From a virus (Duplodnaviria > Caudoviricetes): a DNA stretch of 36,236 nt. The stretch is from IMG/VR virus record IMGVR_UViG_3300028588_000057, positions 1 through 36,236 of that record; one strand, given 5' to 3'. Position numbers and translations under genes: made by a program. Positions 6,602-27,513 of the stretch are shown one piece after another (position 1 is the first letter of the stretch; each line of letters starts with the position of its first letter). The notes below the pieces were generated by a model. It searched no databases. It was given only the letters and a program-made list of their open reading frames with translations, and was not told the origin of the DNA.

Positions 6602-6614
6602 GCCCTGCTAGTTA

Positions 6615-6666
6615 GTCAGTAGGTGATTAGGGGTTAGATAGTTTAGCCCCTAATAGCATTCTGATT
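6615..6666 (+). other. long hairpin after gene (processing site or terminator)
   Basis: ATTAGGGGTTAGA / TTTAGCCCCTAAT core extended by AGTCAG/CTGATT; no clear U-tract. Confidence 0.5.
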
Positions 6667-6702
6667 CACGCTGGTAAGTCAGTCAGGCTAGTAAGTCGAA
6701 AA

Positions 6703-7099
6703 GGGTCAATTGGCAGAATGTCAGATGCCTGCCAAAAAAGTGGCAGAAAAGTGGCATATGCCAAATGGCAGTCAATTGACAGTTTGACCCGGACCCCCAC
6801 TCTGTCCCCCTGTATGCCTCAGCCCTCATGCGTTACTAGCTCTCCCTTACTATCTCCCTTACCCCTCTAGCTATCCCTATACCCCTACTAAAAATCCTGT
6901 TACTAACTACTGTATTTATTTATTAGATTTTTTAATGGGGTCTAATAAAAAGCCTATCCTTATAGTGATAGTAGGGAAGGAGAGAGTTAGTAAGTAGGTA
7001 TAGATAGTAACTCAGGCATGCACAGGATAAGCGCATGGGGCATAGGCAGGGGTCAGGGGATTGTGCCAATTGGCAGGCAATTGACCGATTGGCAATCGG
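6703..7099. other. symmetric repeat-rich element; candidate replication origin
   Basis: TGGCA/TGCCA and CAATTG clusters at both ends, C-rich left arm, AT-rich centre with TTTATTAGA/TCTAATAAA inverted repeat, G-rich right arm. Confidence 0.55.
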
Positions 7100-7102
7100 C
7101 GC

Positions 7103-7132
7103 TTGACGGGCTGACAGAAAAAATGCGATAAT
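7103..7132 (+). promoter_or_regulatory. sigma70-type early promoter
   Basis: TTGACG-18 nt-GATAAT with an extended -10 TG. Confidence 0.7.
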
Positions 7133-7379
7133 AAGGCATGGGCTTAAATAGTGTCTCATTTTTACCACAGTCCCGAGTATGAGTAAGTAGCTCCCAATTA
7201 ACTCAGTAACTCAGTAACTGCCTGAGCCTTCAGCCCGCGCCAGCGGTCATGGCCGGTTACCTGAGCAGAGCTAACTAAATAGCAAGTAACTAATCCCCTA
7301 CGTACCGACGGTATCTAATGAATACCCATTACCTAATTAATAACCGTATCTGGAACTGCACCTAACAAGGATGCTAACA

Positions 7380-7526
7380 ATGACTCTAGTAGAACAACTA
7401 TCTAATATATCCGCTGCTGACTGGATTGAATTCCTATTCAGTCTATCTCCTATCTTCTGGGTGCTGGTAGGTGTGGCCGGGACTCTCCTTACTATCAATG
7501 CAGTTAATGAGCACAAAGGGAACTAA
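7380..7526 (+). CDS. small membrane protein (48 aa; absent from ORF track)
   Basis: MTLVEQLSNISAADWIEFLFSLSPIFWVLVGVAGTLLTINAVNEHKGN; AAGGA RBS; one hydrophobic helix. Confidence 0.65.
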   Translation: MTLVEQLSNISAADWIEFLFSLSPIFWVLVGVAGTLLTINAVNEHKGN

Positions 7527-7532
7527 CTCATT

Positions 7533-8009
7533 ATGTCTAAAGAATCCTTCCAAGCTGATATGGACTTGCTTAACCGAGCCTATCCTAATCTCCAATCAGG
7601 TACTCTGGACCCTGTAATTCTTAACACTACTGAATTCAAGGCAATTACCGGAATTAGCCTAGCTAGCTCCCGCTACTTTGAGCTTCCTATCTTCTGCTCC
7701 CGTATCCCAATCAGTGCTTGGGCGCTTACTCACTATCAGGAGATTATGCAGATGAGCAGTATGCTAGTAGGGGATGAGGTCAGGTATCTGGCTCCCACTA
7801 ATACAGGTGAGCGCCTATTCGTGCATGAAACTCAGCTAGAATACTTGCCTGCTGACTGGACTTACTGGCCCATTAGTAAGCAGGATCGGATAGCACTGAC
7901 TGGGTCTAGCTGGAAACCCTGGGCCAGTGCCAATCTACTAGTATGCAGCCCAATGAGCGGGCGCAAGATAGCAGGCTTTCAACATAGCATTCGGGAGCAA
8001 AGCAAATGA
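7533..8009 (+). CDS. hypothetical protein
   Basis: 158 aa ORF in a tightly packed operon. Confidence 0.7.
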   Translation: MSKESFQADMDLLNRAYPNLQSGTLDPVILNTTEFKAITGISLASSRYFELPIFCSRIPISAWALTHYQEIMQMSSMLVGDEVRYLAPTNTGERLFVHETQLEYLPADWTYWPISKQDRIALTGSSWKPWASANLLVCSPMSGRKIAGFQHSIREQSK

Positions 8010-8383
8010 GTAAGACTTTAGGTGCAACTCTAGCTAGTAATGTGCCAGGAAATCGACGCCTTGTTATTAGCCAGCGTACTAGGCATTTGGTAGATATGAT
8101 TACTCAATTGCTAGTAACTGAATCTGCTGAAATCATTCAGGATTATGTTATCCTCAAGGTTACTGATACTCCCATTAATAAGGATCTAATAGACCGGGAC
8201 AAACTACACCAATGGGCATCCAGTGAGGAACTGGCAATTGGTTTCAAGTCCGATGCTTACCATGTCACTCCCGGTAATGAGGAAATTGGTATCTTCTGGG
8301 GGGACAACAGGGAGAATGTACGGGATGCCTGGCTAGCTCGCTGGTCATCTGTTCAAGTCAATGAAATGGCAAGGAGTCAGTAA
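8006..8383 (+). CDS. hypothetical protein
   Basis: 125 aa, GGAG RBS, ATGA overlap. Confidence 0.7.
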   Translation: MSKTLGATLASNVPGNRRLVISQRTRHLVDMITQLLVTESAEIIQDYVILKVTDTPINKDLIDRDKLHQWASSEELAIGFKSDAYHVTPGNEEIGIFWGDNRENVRDAWLARWSSVQVNEMARSQ

Positions 8384-8385
8384 CC

Positions 8386-8700
8386 ATGAGTACAGTATCT
8401 AAAGACATAGCTGATAAGATTGTGGCCGGGAATGGCTGGATTGATAACCAGCATGAGGAAGTTACTCCAGCAGATGATCAACGAGTAGCTGCTATCATCT
8501 GCTATAACAACTCATTCGGAGGTGTCAGCTACGGGCTAGTAACTCATGGCCAATTCAATAAGTATCAAGCTACTGAGTATGTACGATCTCCTAGAGTCTA
8601 CTGGGAATGTACTGACACTGATTGTTGGTACTACGATAAACGATCAGATGGAGGAATTGGATATAAGCAAGTTAACGCATTACCTAATTTACCAGAGTAA
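8386..8700 (+). CDS. hypothetical protein
   Basis: 104 aa, AAGGAG RBS; stop codon lies in stem I of the hammerhead ribozyme. Confidence 0.75.
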   Translation: MSTVSKDIADKIVAGNGWIDNQHEEVTPADDQRVAAIICYNNSFGGVSYGLVTHGQFNKYQATEYVRSPRVYWECTDTDCWYYDKRSDGGIGYKQVNALPNLPE

Positions 8701-8757
8701 CTGATGAGGCTTCAGTAGCCGAAACCCCTTAATTGGGGTATTACTCATTCCAAATTA
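8685..8757 (+). ncRNA. type I hammerhead ribozyme
   Basis: Stem I GAGTAA(8695-8700)/TTACTC(8741-8746), core CTGATGA(8701-8707), stem II GGCT/AGCC, GAAA(8721-8724), stem III ACCCC/GGGGT, GUA triplet with predicted cleavage after 8740; stem I extension TAATTT/AAATTA. Confidence 0.92.
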
Positions 8758-8770
8758 CGGAGTTAATGCA

Positions 8771-9001
8771 ATGATCCAATCTAACCATTGGGCTTGGCCT
8801 AATGCAGATGGTAGCAGCATGAGCCAGTTTCGTCCTTACATAGCTACTGCTTACTACCTGCATTATGCAGTAGCAGGGTTCAAACGTACACCTGAAATGC
8901 TAGGTATGTATATGATGGATGACATGGGTAATTGCTTTAAATCTAACCATCCTGCATACTGCTACGATAACGCTGAAAGGAACTATTATGCGTACTACTA
9001 A
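8771..9001 (+). CDS. hypothetical protein
   Basis: 76 aa, GGAG RBS at 8759-8762, just downstream of the ribozyme. Confidence 0.65.
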   Translation: MIQSNHWAWPNADGSSMSQFRPYIATAYYLHYAVAGFKRTPEMLGMYMMDDMGNCFKSNHPAYCYDNAERNYYAYY

Positions 9002-9353
9002 GCGATTTACTAAATCAGGCGAGCTTTATCGGGGCGCACGTTACCATCTAGATCCTGAGTCCAAGCACCTAGTAACTTTCACTCGACCAACTGAACCAAC
9101 TCATATCCCATTTACTCCACTATATCGAACAGTTAGTAAGGGGATGAATAAGAAGGAGAAAGCTACTCTCCTAGTCATTCTACGGGGCATGCTCAAAGAT
9201 GGCTATCCTGTAGCTTGGGATTCCACTAACCTATTCACTGCATTTGCTTGGCAATCTGCTGAGTCACTAGGTTTTGGTACTCAAGACTACTGGAAAGCCA
9301 TCTGGCTAGCTGAATACAAATACAACCAATCAATCGAAAAGGAAGCAGAATGA
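8988..9353 (+). CDS. hypothetical protein
   Basis: Start moved to ATG 8988 (AAAGGA RBS); 121 aa. Confidence 0.65.
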   Translation: MRTTKRFTKSGELYRGARYHLDPESKHLVTFTRPTEPTHIPFTPLYRTVSKGMNKKEKATLLVILRGMLKDGYPVAWDSTNLFTAFAWQSAESLGFGTQDYWKAIWLAEYKYNQSIEKEAE

Positions 9354-9772
9354 CCCAAGTAACTAGTATCCGAATCAGTATCTCTCCACCTGAATCAGTA
9401 GTTCTATCTACTGCACTCACTATCATGGCCCATGCTGCTAACACAACCAGCTTGGAAAAGACTGTGATTGAGAAACTGCTACAGAAAATAAAGATCGCCC
9501 AATTCAAAGCAGGTGCCGCACCAGAAGTTAGCTTGGCTCAAGCTAGTATCTCCCTGCAACCAACTGGGACTCCTGACTGGGTCACTCTGCTAACTGAGCT
9601 TTTTCCTACTCATCCTGCTTCCCATGTGGATCTAGCTTATAATGCTGTGTCCCAGTTCTTTGATCCAGCAGCTACTAGCCCGACTCATCCACAGCATCAG
9701 TTATTTATGGGTCAGATGAAAACTCAACTGGATAAGCTAAAGACTCAACCAATATCTGCATCGGACCTATGA
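9350..9772 (+). CDS. hypothetical protein with C-terminal ISASDL tag
   Basis: 140 aa, AAGGA RBS, ATGA overlap. Confidence 0.7.
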   Translation: MTQVTSIRISISPPESVVLSTALTIMAHAANTTSLEKTVIEKLLQKIKIAQFKAGAAPEVSLAQASISLQPTGTPDWVTLLTELFPTHPASHVDLAYNAVSQFFDPAATSPTHPQHQLFMGQMKTQLDKLKTQPISASDL

Positions 9773-9778
9773 CCCCAT

Positions 9779-9952
9779 ATGATTGAACTATTCGGATACT
9801 TACTCATTGGGTTCTTACTAGTGGCTATCCTGTTCCAATCACTAGTAACTGAACCCCCAATAGTAACCTTAATCAAAGTCCTGGCTCTGTTCCTCTGGAT
9901 TCTAGTAATCATCCTAGAATTTACTGAATACGCATTGGATCGTAAATTCTGA
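9779..9952 (+). CDS. small two-helix membrane protein (57 aa; absent from ORF track)
   Basis: MIELFGYLLIGFLLVAILFQSLVTEPPIVTLIKVLALFLWILVIILEFTEYALDRKF fills the gap between flanking genes; weak RBS. Confidence 0.55.
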   Translation: MIELFGYLLIGFLLVAILFQSLVTEPPIVTLIKVLALFLWILVIILEFTEYALDRKF

Positions 9953-9985
9953 TTTCCCATTTGAAGCAGTACATACGGAGTTAAT

Positions 9986-10939
9986 ATGAAACTATCTTGC
10001 CCCAAAACTGGAATCGTCTGGCATGCATCGGTTGGCTACGGTGCTCAAGTAGCAGAGCATCCAGTATTCAGTGCCACTCTCAAGTATCTCACCAATGTAG
10101 CTATCTCGGCCGAGCCAGGTATCACTACTGCGGACAGGTACTTGGCAGGATGTGCATTGCTTAACTACTTGGTAGCTCCTGGCGCTTGGCGGGTTCCACT
10201 TACTGACGGTGCAGTTAGCCATGTGATTTCTAATATCTCCGATCTTGCTAGCACAGTCATTAAGACCCTGGCTACTAAATTGGAATGGCCTCACATTACT
10301 ATCAACCGAGATACTGCGGACCTGTACAATCTCCAGCATTATCTAGTATCCATTAACGAATCCATTGACTCAGTAGCTAGAATCAGTGAAGAGCGCGAGG
10401 AACTGAATCGTAAGACTGGTAATGTAGAGCGGCTTATTAACTCCAATCTGCATCGTAATACACCTAATACTGCTAGACTGCTGGCTGATTGGGCGGAAGC
10501 AGCAGCTAAATTCCCGCAAGATTCTGTGACTTACCTGCCAGATGGCTCACCTATTGCACTGACTGACTACTGGAAAGCTATTATCATCAGTGCTCACACT
10601 GGCAAGCATGTTGAGATGCTAGGTGCGGGTATTGATGCTGATGAAGTAGCAGACCTGATTGAGTGGCTTGAGTTTAACTTAGAAGATCATGGTACTCCAC
10701 AGTCTACTGAGCTAATGAAATCTCTGCGGCTGTCTAAGGAAGTGCTAGAGGACTTTAGCTCCCCGATTCAGCAGCAAGTAATTAAGGCTGACTCTGCACC
10801 TGAACCAGTACGTAAAGACTTTAAGTCCAGTATTGATTATCTCAAGGCTCGTGCTAAGTGGAACCGTGAGAATAAGGTAGATGCTGATTACGATTCAGCT
10901 CCCATTAACACTAGCACTACTCTCGGGATTGAACTGTGA
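9986..10939 (+). CDS. hypothetical protein
   Basis: 317 aa, GGAG RBS; N-terminal CPKTG...HPVF; no family recognised with confidence. Confidence 0.75.
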   Translation: MKLSCPKTGIVWHASVGYGAQVAEHPVFSATLKYLTNVAISAEPGITTADRYLAGCALLNYLVAPGAWRVPLTDGAVSHVISNISDLASTVIKTLATKLEWPHITINRDTADLYNLQHYLVSINESIDSVARISEEREELNRKTGNVERLINSNLHRNTPNTARLLADWAEAAAKFPQDSVTYLPDGSPIALTDYWKAIIISAHTGKHVEMLGAGIDADEVADLIEWLEFNLEDHGTPQSTELMKSLRLSKEVLEDFSSPIQQQVIKADSAPEPVRKDFKSSIDYLKARAKWNRENKVDADYDSAPINTSTTLGIEL

Positions 10940-21936: not shown

Positions 21937-23194
21937 TCTAATTAGTGAGTACTTGGCACTTGTTAGTGATACTGAGGCCCCAGTTCTTGCCCATAGATGG
22001 AGTTGCATCGCTGGCATTGGAGCACTGCTAGGACGATCTGTCTGGTTTGATGCTGGGATTGACGTGTACTATCCTAATATGTACGTAATGCTTGTAGGAA
22101 CTCCAGGCTCCAGGAAGTCTACTGCCATTAAGATGTTCCGGCGGATCTTGAGTAAGGCTGGATATAATAACTTTGCTGCTGAACGTACCAGTAAAGAAAA
22201 GTTCCTAATGGATATGGCTGCTGGTATTGGAGTCGAGGGGCAAACAGATGGTAGCGAGTTCCTGAGTGAGAATCTGTTCAGTGGACTCAATGGCATCGAG
22301 AACATGGACACCAGTGATGAGCGCAAAGTCTTTATTGTGGCTGATGAATTTAACAACTTCTTTGGCAATAACATTGTTGATTTCGTCTCACTCCTGGGAG
22401 ACTTCTGGGATTACAAGGGTACGTATACTACCCGACTCAAGAACTCAGAGTCTATTGTAATTCCTAATCCATGTATTAGCATTCTGACTGGCAATACGCC
22501 TGAGCAGATTCATGCAACCTTTCCACCAGCAGTGATTGGGCAGGGTTTCTTTAGCCGGCTCATGTTTATTTACACGCATGAAACTGGCAAGTCGATACCA
22601 TTTCCGACCAAGCTATCTGATGACTTGATAGATCCATTTGTTAAGAAGCTGCAATCTCTTAGCCAAGTCTGTCAGGGTGAGATTGGATTGAGTGATGAGG
22701 CCAGGGAGTTACTAAGTCGTATTTACCATCGTCGAGATAAAGAAGTCGTACCTGATCCTAGGTTTAGCTACTACTCAACTCGACGGTTTACTCAACTTCA
22801 GAAACTTAGCATGATCCATGCCATTGCAGATTACTCACCAGTAATTGAATTGAAGCATGTGCGCCGAGCTTACACAGTGATGCGCTATACTGAACACTCA
22901 ATGCCACGAGCACTTGGTAGCTTAGGCCGCGCCAAGAATAGTGAGGTCATGTATAAGTTGTTGGAGTTGCTTGAGAAGACTATGCGTCCAATGGAGCTGT
23001 TGGAACTTTGGCCATACTTCTTGAATGACCTAGGATCTGCCAGGGAACTGGGAGAGCTAGTGAATAACCTGGTACTTGGTGGTAAGGTAAACCAGGTAGA
23101 GAAAGGAATCATTATTAAACGTGCAGTCTGGGAAGAGTCTGCTAGCTCTGACTATGACTGGGATTATTTATCTAATGAAGAGAGAGGTTTGTAA
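21914..23194 (+). CDS. DUF3987 (YfjI-like) P-loop ATPase, putative replicative helicase
   Basis: YPNMYVMLVGTPGSRKSTA (Walker A), VADEF (Walker B), GFFSRLMF; start uncertain (21869 or 21914). Confidence 0.75.
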   Translation: MTDQEKPDLISEYLALVSDTEAPVLAHRWSCIAGIGALLGRSVWFDAGIDVYYPNMYVMLVGTPGSRKSTAIKMFRRILSKAGYNNFAAERTSKEKFLMDMAAGIGVEGQTDGSEFLSENLFSGLNGIENMDTSDERKVFIVADEFNNFFGNNIVDFVSLLGDFWDYKGTYTTRLKNSESIVIPNPCISILTGNTPEQIHATFPPAVIGQGFFSRLMFIYTHETGKSIPFPTKLSDDLIDPFVKKLQSLSQVCQGEIGLSDEARELLSRIYHRRDKEVVPDPRFSYYSTRRFTQLQKLSMIHAIADYSPVIELKHVRRAYTVMRYTEHSMPRALGSLGRAKNSEVMYKLLELLEKTMRPMELLELWPYFLNDLGSARELGELVNNLVLGGKVNQVEKGIIIKRAVWEESASSDYDWDYLSNEERGL

Positions 23195-23847
23195 TGAGTG
23201 ATGCAATTAAAGGTATGACTGCTATGACCCAGGAAGAACTGGATGAGCATATTGCTAAGATGCGTGAAGCTGACAAGCAGATTAATAAAGATGCAATTCC
23301 CCCAATGACTATTGGCGAAGCTATGGGGGAGACCCCTTCTCCTTTTGTAGACCCCAAAACTTACACTGCTCGCTACTATGGGATGGAGCAGATCCATGCT
23401 AAGCAGATTAATCGACTTGCTGATGAGGGCAATGCTCACGCTGTTACTCTCCGTAATTCTGGCGTACTTGTATCTGCTAACGGTCCTAGGACCAGTGGTG
23501 GTTACGTGGTTGCTACTGGAGAAACTGGGGAAGCTGACCGGATTTATTACCTGATCCAAAAGATTAATCAGTGGGGTCTTGATCGTAAGTTGATTCGAGA
23601 AGAAGGTTGTACCGCCTTGGCTCAGATGAAGAAGCTAAAAGAGGAAGTGCAAGAGATTGAAGATGCTATCTTGACTGGTGATGAGATCGAGATGGTAGAC
23701 GGTATCGGTGATAGCATGGTTGTGATTATCCAACTCTGCCGACTTACCGGAGTCACAGTAGAGGAAGCTCTGGAACGAGCATATGCCCAGATTAAGTATC
23801 GCAAGGGCTATATGCAAGATGGTGTCTTTATCAAGGAAACTAAGTAA
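23194..23847 (+). CDS. MazG-like NTP pyrophosphohydrolase with an N-terminal extension
   Basis: KLKEEVQEIEDAI...DGIGDSMVV...AYAQIKYRKG..DGVFIKE. Confidence 0.8.
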   Translation: MSDAIKGMTAMTQEELDEHIAKMREADKQINKDAIPPMTIGEAMGETPSPFVDPKTYTARYYGMEQIHAKQINRLADEGNAHAVTLRNSGVLVSANGPRTSGGYVVATGETGEADRIYYLIQKINQWGLDRKLIREEGCTALAQMKKLKEEVQEIEDAILTGDEIEMVDGIGDSMVVIIQLCRLTGVTVEEALERAYAQIKYRKGYMQDGVFIKETK

Positions 23848-23849
23848 TC

Positions 23850-24206
23850 ATGCCTACAGTCACTAAGAAAGCTACTGTCCTGCCTAAGGAAGTACGCACT
23901 CCTAGTGGCTGCATTCCTCTTACTGTGGATGCAGTCACCAAGTATATCAATGGCAAGCATGGAGAAATTACCAGACTTCAGAAGATGCAGACTGAGTTAG
24001 TAGCAGAGAATGAAGAACTTAAGAAAAAATTGGCTGAGCCGATTCCTGAAAGTTCGGAGTTGCCTAAGACAGTTAAGGCTTTGTTAAATCAAGCTAGAGC
24101 AGGAATGGATCATCTAGCAGAGATTTGTATACACACAGGTATGACTGAAGAACAGGCACGGGCTTATCAGTGCTACCTAGATACGATCATTGAGCTGAGA
24201 CCATAA
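23850..24206 (+). CDS. hypothetical coiled-coil protein
   Basis: 118 aa, AAGGA RBS. Confidence 0.65.
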   Translation: MPTVTKKATVLPKEVRTPSGCIPLTVDAVTKYINGKHGEITRLQKMQTELVAENEELKKKLAEPIPESSELPKTVKALLNQARAGMDHLAEICIHTGMTEEQARAYQCYLDTIIELRP

Positions 24207-25033
24207 TGGCAATAGCAACTAGACATCCAGATGGGACTCTCAAGACTGGTAAGGAGATAGAGATGGAAATGGAAGCAGCTAAAGCCCATAACGCAGCTCT
24301 CCCTCAACCTGAGCCAGCTCCGCTTCCTGCTCCTGATCCCAGCAACCCTAAAGACTTCTACGGCGTCCAGAAGTTACCAGTGCATCTGGTGCCTCCAGGG
24401 GCTGTAGCTTACATGGCCATGGGACTATTCGAGGGGATGCTTAAGTATGGCCGAGCCAACTGGAGAGCTACTAAGGTTCGTGCGTCAGTCTACTATGCGG
24501 CTGGTATGAGACACAGAGCTAAGTGGTTTGAAGGCCAGGACAAGGATCCGCTCACACACGTCCACCATCTCGCCTCTAGTCTGGCTTGTGATGCTATCAT
24601 TGTTGATGCTATGCTTAATGGCACTCTGATTGATGACCGCAATTACCGGGTTAGTGCTGGCTATGACAATCTAGATGCTGAGGTAGAAGAAGTAATGAAG
24701 CATCTGGCTCAGCTGCATAAGGATAAGGATCCAGTGCAATATAGCAGATTGACTCAGCCAGATCCGAAGCCGCATGGCGAAGCCACGGCGCAGGCTAAGA
24801 ATAAGACTTGGCATGTAGCTAACTGGGCCAAAGAAGCCTTAGTTGATTTCGGCAGTGGGATTACAACTAGATGGTTAGTAGCTGTTCCAGGTTCCTCTGA
24901 GTATTGTTTCTGCTACGATGCTAAGCCTGAAAGTTATACTCGGTTTAAAGTTAAATTAGGTGACCCTAAACTGACTGCGAGTCAACAAGAATATTATCCT
25001 GTAACCCACTGGGAGGACATGACTAATGGCTGA
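24206..25033 (+). CDS. DUF5664-like dATP/dGTP diphosphohydrolase domain protein with a C-terminal extension
   Basis: NPKD..G..KLP.HLVP, GMLKYGRANWR, RH..KWFEGQD.DP...HHLA. Confidence 0.8.
   Translation: MAIATRHPDGTLKTGKEIEMEMEAAKAHNAALPQPEPAPLPAPDPSNPKDFYGVQKLPVHLVPPGAVAYMAMGLFEGMLKYGRANWRATKVRASVYYAAGMRHRAKWFEGQDKDPLTHVHHLASSLACDAIIVDAMLNGTLIDDRNYRVSAGYDNLDAEVEEVMKHLAQLHKDKDPVQYSRLTQPDPKPHGEATAQAKNKTWHVANWAKEALVDFGSGITTRWLVAVPGSSEYCFCYDAKPESYTRFKVKLGDPKLTASQQEYYPVTHWEDMTNG
24762..24796 (+). repeat. PAS-like hairpin motif, copy 3
   Basis: ATCCGAAGC-CG-CA-TGGC-GAA-GCCA-CG-GCGCAGGCT. Confidence 0.75.
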
Positions 25034-26072: not shown

Positions 26073-26588
26073 ATGAACGATCTGATTGATATTGCAAAAG
26101 ATGTTGACGGTTTCCGTGATGGCCAACTCGGCTTTAAGATTGACCCTGTAAGCGGTGACTATCACTATTATCTCTGGACTGCCAAGAAGGCTCAGGATCC
26201 TAAAGCTACTGAACCAGCTATGCATTGGGTGTTTAAGGGTAACCAAACTTGGTACGATTGCTACATTAGCAAGCAAATCTTTTCCCCTGCACAACGTGAT
26301 GAGCTAGCAGGTCAGACAGCTAACTTCACTCGAGTCCCGGCTGAGGAACCTAGTACCTTTGACCAGAACAAGCAAGCAGTAGATATTAAAGGTTACCGAG
26401 TTCTGAGCGACCAAGAGAAGGAAACTATTAATTACCTTAAAGTATTGGAACAAGAACTTCTTAATTACCTGGATGCTGCTAAAGCTGAGCCTGGCACCAA
26501 CCAACGCAGCCTGGCACTAGGAGTTACTAACATCCAGCAAGGTTTCATGTGGGCTATTCGTGCAATTGCTCGGCCTAATGGAGAGTGA
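26073..26588 (+). CDS. acb2: Acb2-like anti-CBASS cyclic-nucleotide sponge fused to an unknown N-terminal domain
   Basis: C-terminal IKGYRVLS..E...IN..K...R.LALG.T.IQQGFMWAIRAIARP matches the Acb2 signature as recalled; TAAGGA RBS. Confidence 0.85.
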   Translation: MNDLIDIAKDVDGFRDGQLGFKIDPVSGDYHYYLWTAKKAQDPKATEPAMHWVFKGNQTWYDCYISKQIFSPAQRDELAGQTANFTRVPAEEPSTFDQNKQAVDIKGYRVLSDQEKETINYLKVLEQELLNYLDAAKAEPGTNQRSLALGVTNIQQGFMWAIRAIARPNGE

Positions 26589-27282: not shown

Positions 27283-27513
27283 ATGGATTACAATGCAGCA
27301 ATCAAGGAACTGACTGAAGGCAAGAGCATTGCCCGTGCTAGTGCCGAGCCTGGTACTTACATGAAATTTGGTATGGACCCTGCAGCTAGCCACACGGCCG
27401 GGCCGCCATTCATCTTTACCAAGTCCACTCCACCAGTGGTCTACATGCCAACTCACGAAGATGCTTCCGCAGATGATTGGGAAGTGTTGGGTGAAACTGA
27501 AGGCGACGAGTAA
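27283..27513 (+). CDS. tad2: Tad2-like (DUF2829) Thoeris anti-defence sponge
   Basis: MDYNAAIKELTEGKSIAR...YMPTHEDASADDWEV matches the DUF2829 pattern (F..A...L..G..V.R ... W.PS..D..A.DW) but is divergent. Confidence 0.7.
   Translation: MDYNAAIKELTEGKSIARASAEPGTYMKFGMDPAASHTAGPPFIFTKSTPPVVYMPTHEDASADDWEVLGETEGDE

What the first reader, a model, noticed from the sequence alone, without database searches (positions are those of the whole stretch)
8685..8757. Canonical type I hammerhead ribozyme fused to a stop codon inside an early operon
Seen: all core nucleotides (CUGAUGA, GAAA, GUA) and three perfect stems. The UAA stop of 8386..8700 forms part of stem I, and predicted cleavage after 8740 leaves the next RBS (8759) 18 nt from the new 5' end. 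Loop II (UCAGU) is complementary to ACUGA at 8700-8704, which offers an inactive alternative fold. Established: hammerheads occur in some phage intergenic regions and leave 5'-OH ends. Inference: a terminating ribosome would disrupt stem I, so cleavage could be coupled to translation of the upstream gene and would free the downstream RBS region.
Basis: partly seen in the sequence, partly recalled or inferred. Interest (0 to 1): 0.75.

Follow-up and report, generated by a model that had tools for sequence, protein, structure and literature searches.

The report
Phage hammerhead ribozyme abutting stop codon
A phage carries a complete hammerhead ribozyme motif that starts on the stop codon of one small gene and is predicted to cut the message 30 bases before the next gene; this layout is common among phage hammerheads, and the overlap likely reflects tight gene packing, not a translation-controlled switch.

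Summary
The hammerhead is real. Core and three stems lie at 8695-8746, the only hit in the window; 0 of 300 shuffles match at that stringency. A close relative keeps it with a compensatory base-pair insertion. It belongs to a large phage type I group (433 distinct copies gathered) and carries that group's conserved unpaired bases. Rfam does not score the group, but phage hammerheads flanking small genes have been published since 2010-2011.

The stop overlap is real but is a group habit. The upstream gene ends at the ribozyme's 5' edge in 320 of 369 called cases and runs past the cut once. Stem-I UAA is the stop in only 36 of 144 copies that have it. In this phage's relative the stop sits 6 nt earlier.

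The proposed alternative fold is minor (3-8%) and not enriched. The outer helix is chance. Cutting hardly opens the Shine-Dalgarno sequence in folding models.

Best reading: near-constitutive processing of a polycistronic transcript. Ribosome-gated cleavage remains possible (about 13%) and untested. This scan reported the same arrangement before on other DNA. Cleavage itself was not tested.

The parts
8386..8700 (+). Upstream ORF, 104 aa, no known family; its UAA stop (8698-8700) is the inner three bases of the stem I 5' strand
   Evidence: one 103-aa relative at 76% identity
8694..8694 (+). Unpaired A just 5' of stem I, conserved in the group; predicted tertiary contact
   Evidence: A in 327 of 329 copies with a 13-nt stem-loop II; not part of any search pattern
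8695..8700 (+). Stem I, 5' strand (6 bp, outer G-C pair)
   Evidence: stem I is 6 bp in 364 of 433 copies
8701..8707 (+). Catalytic core C3-A9 (CUGAUGA)
   Evidence: sequence; core consensus as given in PMC3088659 methods passage
8708..8720 (+). Stem II (4 bp) with 5-nt loop UCAGU of the group's U-N-A-N-U type
   Evidence: U 326, A 296, U 262 of 329 at loop positions 1, 3, 5
8721..8724 (+). Core G12-A15 (GAAA)
8724..8739 (+). Stem III (A-U plus four C-G pairs, 6-nt loop); would remain as a 3' hairpin on the upstream product
   Evidence: a relative has one base inserted after 8727 and its partner after 8735 (run X4)
8740..8741 (+). Predicted cleavage site, GUA triplet, cut between A8740 and U8741
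   Evidence: position in the hammerhead consensus; GUA in 30 and GUC in 396 of 433 copies; cleavage not tested
8741..8747 (+). Stem I 3' strand (8741-8746) and the conserved unpaired A at 8747
   Evidence: A in 306 of 329 copies
8747..8763 (+). Leader of the downstream gene: Shine-Dalgarno-like GGAG 8759-8762 inside a weak predicted 5-bp hairpin (8747-8751 with 8759-8763, -2.7 kcal/mol)
8771..9001 (+). Downstream ORF, 76 aa, no known family; starts 30 nt after the predicted cut
8685..8690 (+).
   Evidence: helices of 6 bp or more at this place in 12 of 422 copies versus 116 of 4220 mismatched-flank controls; the 5' arm differs in the relative

Best explanation
This is a complete type I hammerhead motif at 8694-8747 that likely cuts the phage's polycistronic transcript after A8740 more or less constitutively, and its overlap with the upstream stop codon likely reflects tight gene packing plus selection against ribosomes running past the cut. 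Shown: the motif, its conservation, its position between two genes, and the group-wide layout of stop at the 5' edge and start about 26 nt after the cut. Inferred: (1) it folds and cleaves in the cell; (2) the upstream piece ends just after its stop, in the stem III hairpin with a 2',3'-cyclic phosphate; (3) the downstream piece starts with a 5'-OH and a fixed 30-nt leader, which by recalled knowledge of RNase E is a poor substrate for 5'-end-dependent decay; so the cut would uncouple the stability and translation of the two parts, as RNase III sites do in T7 early RNA (recalled); (4) passing ribosomes open stem I briefly and may slow the cut, but stem III stays folded and the RNA can refold between ribosomes, so cutting is delayed and not switched.
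For: Motif far beyond chance. Relative: one substitution and a paired insertion in 8694-8749, while the upstream protein is only 76% identical and its last ten residues are replaced. The group's conserved unpaired bases are all present. Fixed downstream geometry: median leader 26 nt, quartiles 24-32, in 273 of 317 cluster representatives with a start found; here 30 nt. Upstream stops lie at -20..+14 of the core in 320 of 369 called genes among 410 copies, and in 175 of 224 versus 21-35 of 224 at four shifted control positions. They are spread over -9 (48), -8 (64), -3 (37), +1 (70) and +11 (22), so genes use whichever stop the motif offers; 1 of 410 runs past the cut. The exact place is not kept: -3 here, -9 in the relative; -3 in four and -9 in one of five metagenome copies with the same stem I. 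Packing is the rule here: 26 of 35 gene junctions on this strand have gaps of 15 nt or less. Published clusters cleaved in 2-kb transcripts in vitro and in E. coli, and processing into gene-length mRNAs was proposed (PMC3088659 section 6).
Against: No cleavage or RNA data for this element. Predicted stem I pairing falls from 0.97 in the isolated element to 0.66 in a 211-nt context and 0.40 when the coding sequence is forced open. Four of 18 consensus hammerheads tested in PMC3088659 were inactive. UAA is the commonest inner triplet of stem I (about 540 stored stretches versus about 140 each for CAA and ATA), and upstream genes are more often in its frame when it is present (53 of 113 versus 46 of 203, p = 1e-5); this fits packing but fits selected coupling equally. 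The concentration of stops within one ribosome footprint of stem I is what a coupling model predicts too. Three distant relatives (Aeromonas phage P5, Polaromonas phage Tiera, locus L255) have no such ribozyme, so the lineage does not need it.
Confidence: 0.7

Rival explanations
1. Ribosome-gated ribozyme: ribosomes ending the upstream gene keep stem I and the core open, so the transcript is cut mainly when translation of that gene drops. The cut then reports the translation state and sets the fate of the downstream genes.
For: A ribosome protects about 10 nt past the A site and represses terminator hairpins placed a few bases after a stop (PMC4824070 section 10). Masking that footprint removes stems I and II in the folding model, by construction. 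320 of 369 called upstream stops lie at -20..+14. The relative's stop at -9 is still within a footprint. UAA is enriched in stem I.
Against: A terminator must fold in a short window, whereas a ribozyme can cut at any time in the RNA's life (inference). 44 of 410 copies have the called stop more than 20 nt upstream and 41 have no called gene. The stop position is not conserved. The inactive fold that would lock the state is 3-8% and not enriched. The UAA excess is partly a founder effect: 21 of 70 copies but only 10 of 58 loci in the unbiased sample, and one hexamer accounts for 61 of the UAA copies. Gene packing alone predicts overlap.
Confidence: 0.13
2. The cut mainly serves to end or destabilise one side of the message, a terminator substitute or timer: it exposes the upstream piece to 3' exonucleases or the downstream piece to a 5'-OH-tolerant nuclease, lowering expression of one block of genes.
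For: glmS cleavage leads to decay, and ribozymes in 3' UTRs change expression in bacteria (PMC6765202 passages; PMC5502269 passage). No terminator-like site was found between 8234 and 15000 on this strand.
Against: The conserved 24-32 nt leader with a start codon after the cut points to the downstream piece being used as an mRNA. Stem III would cap the upstream piece with a hairpin (inference). The terminator scan is crude and found fewer sites than shuffles did.
Confidence: 0.11
3. An inactive or neutral passenger: a ribozyme module carried in by recombination with a small gene, with no effect on this phage.
For: Single copy in the window; absent from three distant relatives; loose ends show similar hammerhead cores on unrelated contigs.
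Against: Perfect core, conserved peripheral bases, and a compensatory insertion in a relative whose neighbouring coding sequence has diverged by about 20%.
Confidence: 0.06

Closest known systems
Hammerhead ribozymes flanking small genes in phages and prophages (Perreault et al. 2011, PMC3088659; reviewed in PMC6155905 and PMC6765202)
   Same: Full core consensus, intergenic position between small non-conserved ORFs in phage DNA, start codon shortly after the cut (13 nt for the halovirus example in PMC3088659); proposed role in cutting long transcripts into gene-length mRNAs.
   Different: Single copy here, not a cluster. The main text of PMC3088659 has no occurrence of 'stop codon', 'translation' or 'overlap', so the overlap with upstream stops is not described there; its supplementary alignments were not read.
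Type I hammerhead topology (stem I open); Rfam RF03152 RAGATH-1-hammerhead and RF02275 Hammerhead_HH9 as nearest models
   Same: Stem I open, stems II and III closed; the core aligns to both models.
   Different: Scores far below Rfam thresholds (18.9 versus 56.3 bits; 12.7 versus 52 bits). Twenty loci holding other copies also give no Rfam hit. Stem I is 6 bp with a conserved unpaired A on each side and no outer helix, unlike HH9.
Ribosome repression of intrinsic terminators near stop codons (PMC4824070)
   Same: A ribosome at a stop codon physically covers an RNA structure placed a few bases downstream.
   Different: That effect acts in the short window of transcription termination and was measured; no such effect was measured for this ribozyme.
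RNase III processing sites in phage T7 early RNA (recalled, not from a call)
   Same: A structured site between early genes cuts a polycistronic message just ahead of the next ribosome-binding site.
   Different: Needs a host enzyme and leaves a 5' phosphate; a hammerhead needs none and leaves a 5'-OH.

Membership tests
Hammerhead ribozyme, type I | Core C3 U4 G5 A6 N7 G8 A9, G12 A13 A14 A15, U16 H17 | tested here: met
   8701-8707, 8721-8724, 8739-8740; consensus as quoted from PMC3088659
Hammerhead ribozyme, type I | Three helices closing the core without mispairs; stem I open, II and III looped | tested here: met
   6, 4 and 5 pairs; minimum-energy and centroid folds agree
Hammerhead ribozyme, type I | Structure supported by covariation or compensatory change | tested here: met
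   Paired insertion in stem III of a relative. In 54 group members 12 of 15 pairs change on both sides, but those were selected for pairing, so that figure is not independent.
Hammerhead ribozyme, type I | Tertiary contact between loop II and the stem I periphery | tested here: inconclusive
   Conserved A8694, A8747 and loop U-A-U match the group; the contact itself is inferred, with no structure
Hammerhead ribozyme, type I | Site-specific self-cleavage giving 2',3'-cyclic phosphate and 5'-OH | not testable with these tools
   needs an assay
Rfam hammerhead families (clan CL00010, RF03152) | Score at or above the gathering threshold | tested here: not met
Phage intergenic processing hammerheads (PMC3088659) | In phage DNA, between small ORFs on the sense strand, start codon shortly after the cut | tested here: met
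   terminase, portal and DNA polymerase in the window; ORFs 8386-8700 and 8771-9001
Phage intergenic processing hammerheads (PMC3088659) | Several ribozymes flanking single genes | tested here: not met
   one hit only by type I, II and III pattern scans and by the custom model; the window may not be the whole genome
Translation-gated RNA switch (attenuator-like) | Conserved stop position and a stable alternative fold | tested here: not met
   stop at -3 here, -9 in the relative; alternative helix 3-8%, loop not enriched
Translation-gated RNA switch (attenuator-like) | Output changes with upstream translation | not testable with these tools
   needs reporters

The most novel reading that the evidence does not exclude
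Phage type I hammerheads as a class are ribosome-gated: the upstream gene's stop is kept within one ribosome footprint of stem I so that active translation delays the cut, making thousands of phage ribozymes translation-sensing timers of mRNA processing. This element, with the stop inside stem I, would be a strong-coupling case and its relative with the stop 6 nt earlier a natural weaker control.
Probability: 0.13. Interest if true: 0.7.

Novelty: new member of a known kind. Interest (0 to 1): 0.3.

Why it matters
The role of self-cleaving ribozymes in phages is called an open question in the reviews read (PMC6155905, PMC6765202). This copy is ordinary, but the group counts add two testable regularities: upstream genes end at the ribozyme's 5' edge and almost never cross the cut, and the next start lies about 26 nt after it. 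The window and its relative form a natural pair (stop at -3 versus -9) for asking whether ribosomes modulate cleavage. A cultured phage with a group member (MT375528.1) gives an in vivo system. If gating were shown it would be a new way to couple translation to RNA processing; if not, the element is one more host-independent processing site.

Tried and rejected
Rfam: no gathering hit in the window or in 20 loci holding other copies; only sub-threshold matches. Close phage relatives: none by blastn of 7500-10000, none for the upstream protein in IMG/VR, one distant locus for the 317-aa protein; best polymerase match 32%, so the host is not assigned. No Pfam or PHROG family for either flanking protein. 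No RNA holder listed, so expression was not examined. Inactive alternative fold: rejected as a designed switch; it dominates only in nascent RNA ending at 8716-8718 (0.67-0.75) and drops to 0.12 once 8724 is made. Outer helix: rejected. Freeing of the ribosome-binding site: small group-wide effect, median unpaired 0.62 to 0.69, with 72 of 273 gaining and 19 losing more than 0.1. A first count of stem I triplets (UAA 4 of 53) was wrong because copies seen in an earlier scan had been dropped; recounted as 21 of 70. One X3 contig has 97 letters where the window has 102 between 8588 and 8691, which would put the gene out of frame with the stem I UAA; it is a single contig at depth about 5 with a 29-nt anchor, so it is not used. 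Promoter scan: a 10-of-12 site at 7103-7132, but fewer sites overall than in shuffles. Type II and III hammerhead scans of the window were empty. PMC5785228 (ribozymes in bacterial 3' UTRs) is not held and was not read.

Full report
Observation. Stem I is 8695-8700 with 8741-8746, the core CUGAUGA is 8701-8707, stem II is 8708-8720, GAAA is 8721-8724, stem III is 8724-8739, and the triplet GUA puts the predicted cut between 8740 and 8741. The minimum-energy fold of 8680-8762 is the hammerhead (-21.2 kcal/mol, z -2.3, 6 of 200 shuffles as low). A pattern scan finds this one element on both strands of the window; 1 of 300 shuffles had any hit at loose settings and 0 of 300 at this element's stem lengths. 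Rfam does not call it; on 111 nt the best hammerhead matches are RF03152 at 18.9 bits (threshold 56.3) and RF02275 at 12.7 bits (threshold 52).

Context. The window is phage DNA: portal, terminase, helicase, family A polymerase, primase. The nearest named phages by polymerase are Aeromonas phage P5 (32%) and Polaromonas phage Tiera (27%), too far to give a host. The ribozyme lies in a run of small unknown genes between the divergent terminase block and the helicase; 'early' follows from that gene order and is not shown. It fills a 70-nt gap, and 26 of 35 junctions on this strand have gaps of 15 nt or less, with starts chosen mechanically. It is the only hammerhead in the window by type I, II and III scans and by a custom model. 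P5, Tiera and locus L255 have none.

A close relative. Contigs from four compost runs of one study (X2-X5) lie on this region at roughly 80-99% identity; run X1 may be the window's source and is not independent. In X4, 8694-8749 differs by one letter plus an A inserted after 8727 and a T after 8735, which pair and lengthen stem III. The upstream protein of the relative (P0002) is 76% identical, 103 aa, with a different C-terminal stretch. The X2 and X5 contigs have 98 letters where the window has 93 between 8642 and 8736: two for stem III and three more. With a protein one residue shorter, this puts the stop two codons before the stem I UAA, ending on the conserved A at 8694; X4's loose end shows a stop there. 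So the ribozyme is conserved, the stop-in-stem-I position is not, and the 5' arm of the outer helix is replaced.

The group. Pattern scans of IMG/VR give about 540 stored stretches for the UAA form, about 140 each for the CAA and ATA forms and about 9,700 for a loose pattern, of whose 125 sampled loci 60 held a valid type I fold. In all I gathered 433 distinct copies, the window included; this set is weighted to the three triplets searched. Stem I is 6 bp in 364 of 433. Among the 329 with a 13-nt stem-loop II, positions that no pattern fixed are conserved: A before stem I (327), A after it (306), and loop U-N-A-N-U (326, 296, 262). The window has all of them, which I read as a tertiary contact (inference). 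A model from 54 copies chosen for the window's helix lengths scores the window 63.9 bits and finds a copy in the cultured Pelagibacter phage Jormungand EXVC012P at 47.1 bits. Twenty loci with such copies give no Rfam hit.

Where upstream genes stop. Gene calls are crude: longest ORF of 50 codons or more. Of 410 copies with at least 290 nt upstream, 369 had a called gene, and 320 of these stop between -20 and +14 of the first core base (262 of 304 with one copy per upstream cluster). At four shifted positions the same rule gives 21-35 of 224 against 175 of 224. The peaks are -9 (48), -8 (64), -3 (37), +1 (70, the core UGA) and +11 (22, loop II); one gene runs past the cut. UAA in stem I is the called stop in 36 of 144 copies that have it; in the unbiased sample 4 of 53 called genes stop at -3. 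Results that favour selection on the stop: UAA is the commonest triplet (21 of 70 unbiased copies, 8.7 expected from column frequencies), and upstream genes are more often in its frame when it is present (53 of 113 versus 46 of 203, p = 1e-5; 45 of 103 versus 34 of 154 by cluster, p = 3e-4). Against over-reading: those 21 copies sit in 10 of 58 loci and one hexamer makes up 61 of the UAA copies; 44 of 410 copies have a stop more than 20 nt away and 41 have no called gene. Five metagenome copies with the window's stem I show four stops at -3 and one at -9, the last in a gene that by eye resembles two of the others. The simplest reading is that genes are packed against the ribozyme, adopt the stops it contains, and are kept from crossing the cut, which would make stop-less messages (inference).

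A ribosome at 8698-8700 would cover stem I and the core (about 10 nt past the A site; PMC4824070 section 10), so transient opening is expected. The proposed inactive helix (8700-8704 with 8712-8716) is 0.9 kcal/mol weaker than stem II and has 3-8% probability in the full RNA; it leads only while the nascent chain ends at 8716-8718; the loop UCAGU occurs in 3 of 289 copies against 4.9 expected. The outer helix is no commoner than in mismatched controls (12 of 422 versus 116 of 4220). GGAG 8759-8762 sits in a -2.7 kcal/mol hairpin with 8747-8751 both before and after the cut (unpaired 0.15 and 0.05-0.09), though the wider stretch 8757-8766 opens from 0.37 to 0.54, and the group median moves from 0.62 to 0.69. 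What the group does conserve is a start codon about 26 nt after the cut (quartiles 24-32; 273 of 317).

Mechanism. Most likely (0.70) the ribozyme cuts the long transcript near-constitutively, leaving an upstream message that ends just past its stop in the stem III hairpin and a downstream message with a 5'-OH and a 30-nt leader (end chemistry as in PMC10250234 passage). That 5'-OH ends resist RNase E's 5'-dependent route, and the likeness to T7 RNase III sites, are recalled and come from no call. Rivals: ribosome-gated cutting (0.13), cutting mainly to destabilise one side (0.11), neutral passenger (0.06). No step past the sequence evidence was tested.

What is known. PMC3088659 (passages and the whole of section 6) reports hammerheads of all three types flanking genes in prophages, cleavage in vitro and in E. 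coli, and proposes processing into gene-length mRNAs. PMC6155905 (passages), PMC6765202 (passages) and PMC13725137 (passages) confirm type I hammerheads in bacterial and phage DNA; the first two call their role open. PMC4824070 (abstract and section 10), PMC5502269 and PMC10250234 (passages) were used for side points. Eight searches listed no paper whose title or abstract start describes phage hammerheads overlapping upstream stop codons; most hits were seen only as listings, subscription papers are missing, and the supplementary alignments of PMC3088659 were not read and may hold this group. This scan has noted the same arrangement in other genomes (e1-9892271, e1-6328200, e1-5920460, and for type II e1-3441559); these are unchecked notes, not support, and none concerns this genome or sequence.

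Verdict. A real, well-formed phage type I hammerhead; a new member of a known kind; interest 0.3. The overlap with the stop codon is a general habit of the group and does not by itself show regulation, but the window and its relative make a simple test pair.

Noticed in passing
window 26073-26588 + and 27283-27513 +: Likely anti-defence genes: an Acb2/Tad1 hairpin domain (PF24729, E 4e-15) and a Tad2-like domain (PF11195, E 2e-8), with a crAss001_48-like gene between them.
   Followed up: no
window 23194-25033 +: MazG-like pyrophosphatase and a dATP/dGTP diphosphohydrolase-like protein (PF18909, E 2e-21) in the replication block; could alter nucleotide pools. No base-modification gene was looked for.
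   Followed up: no
window 8756-8767 and 9974-9985: The same 12-base ribosome-binding stretch precedes two genes. At the first copy an extra ATG at 8766 opens a two-codon frame whose stop overlaps the ATG at 8771.
   Followed up: no
window 6602-7370: Long non-coding stretch ahead of the operon: a hairpin at about 6611-6669, a 35-nt imperfect inverted repeat 6701-6735/7070-7104 and a promoter-like site at 7103-7132. Could be an origin, genome end or control region.
   Followed up: partly
L507 2994-3060 (MT375528.1 about 38216-38282): Cultured Pelagibacter phage Jormungand EXVC012P has a hammerhead of this group (47.1 bits), unannotated, overlapping the end of annotated gp49 in a region with ArdA genes.
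   Followed up: partly
L004, L007, L017, L066, L071-L077, L131, L165: Many IMG/VR contigs carry two to four of these hammerheads within 3 kb, spaced 175-1000 nt apart.
   Followed up: partly
433 group copies: Between -9 and the cut the motif holds stop codons in all three frames in 195 copies, two frames in 219 and one in 19; the window has all three. No chance control was run.
   Followed up: partly
P0001: The upstream protein is on record on a 46,350-base contig, so the 36-kb window is probably not the whole genome.
   Followed up: no
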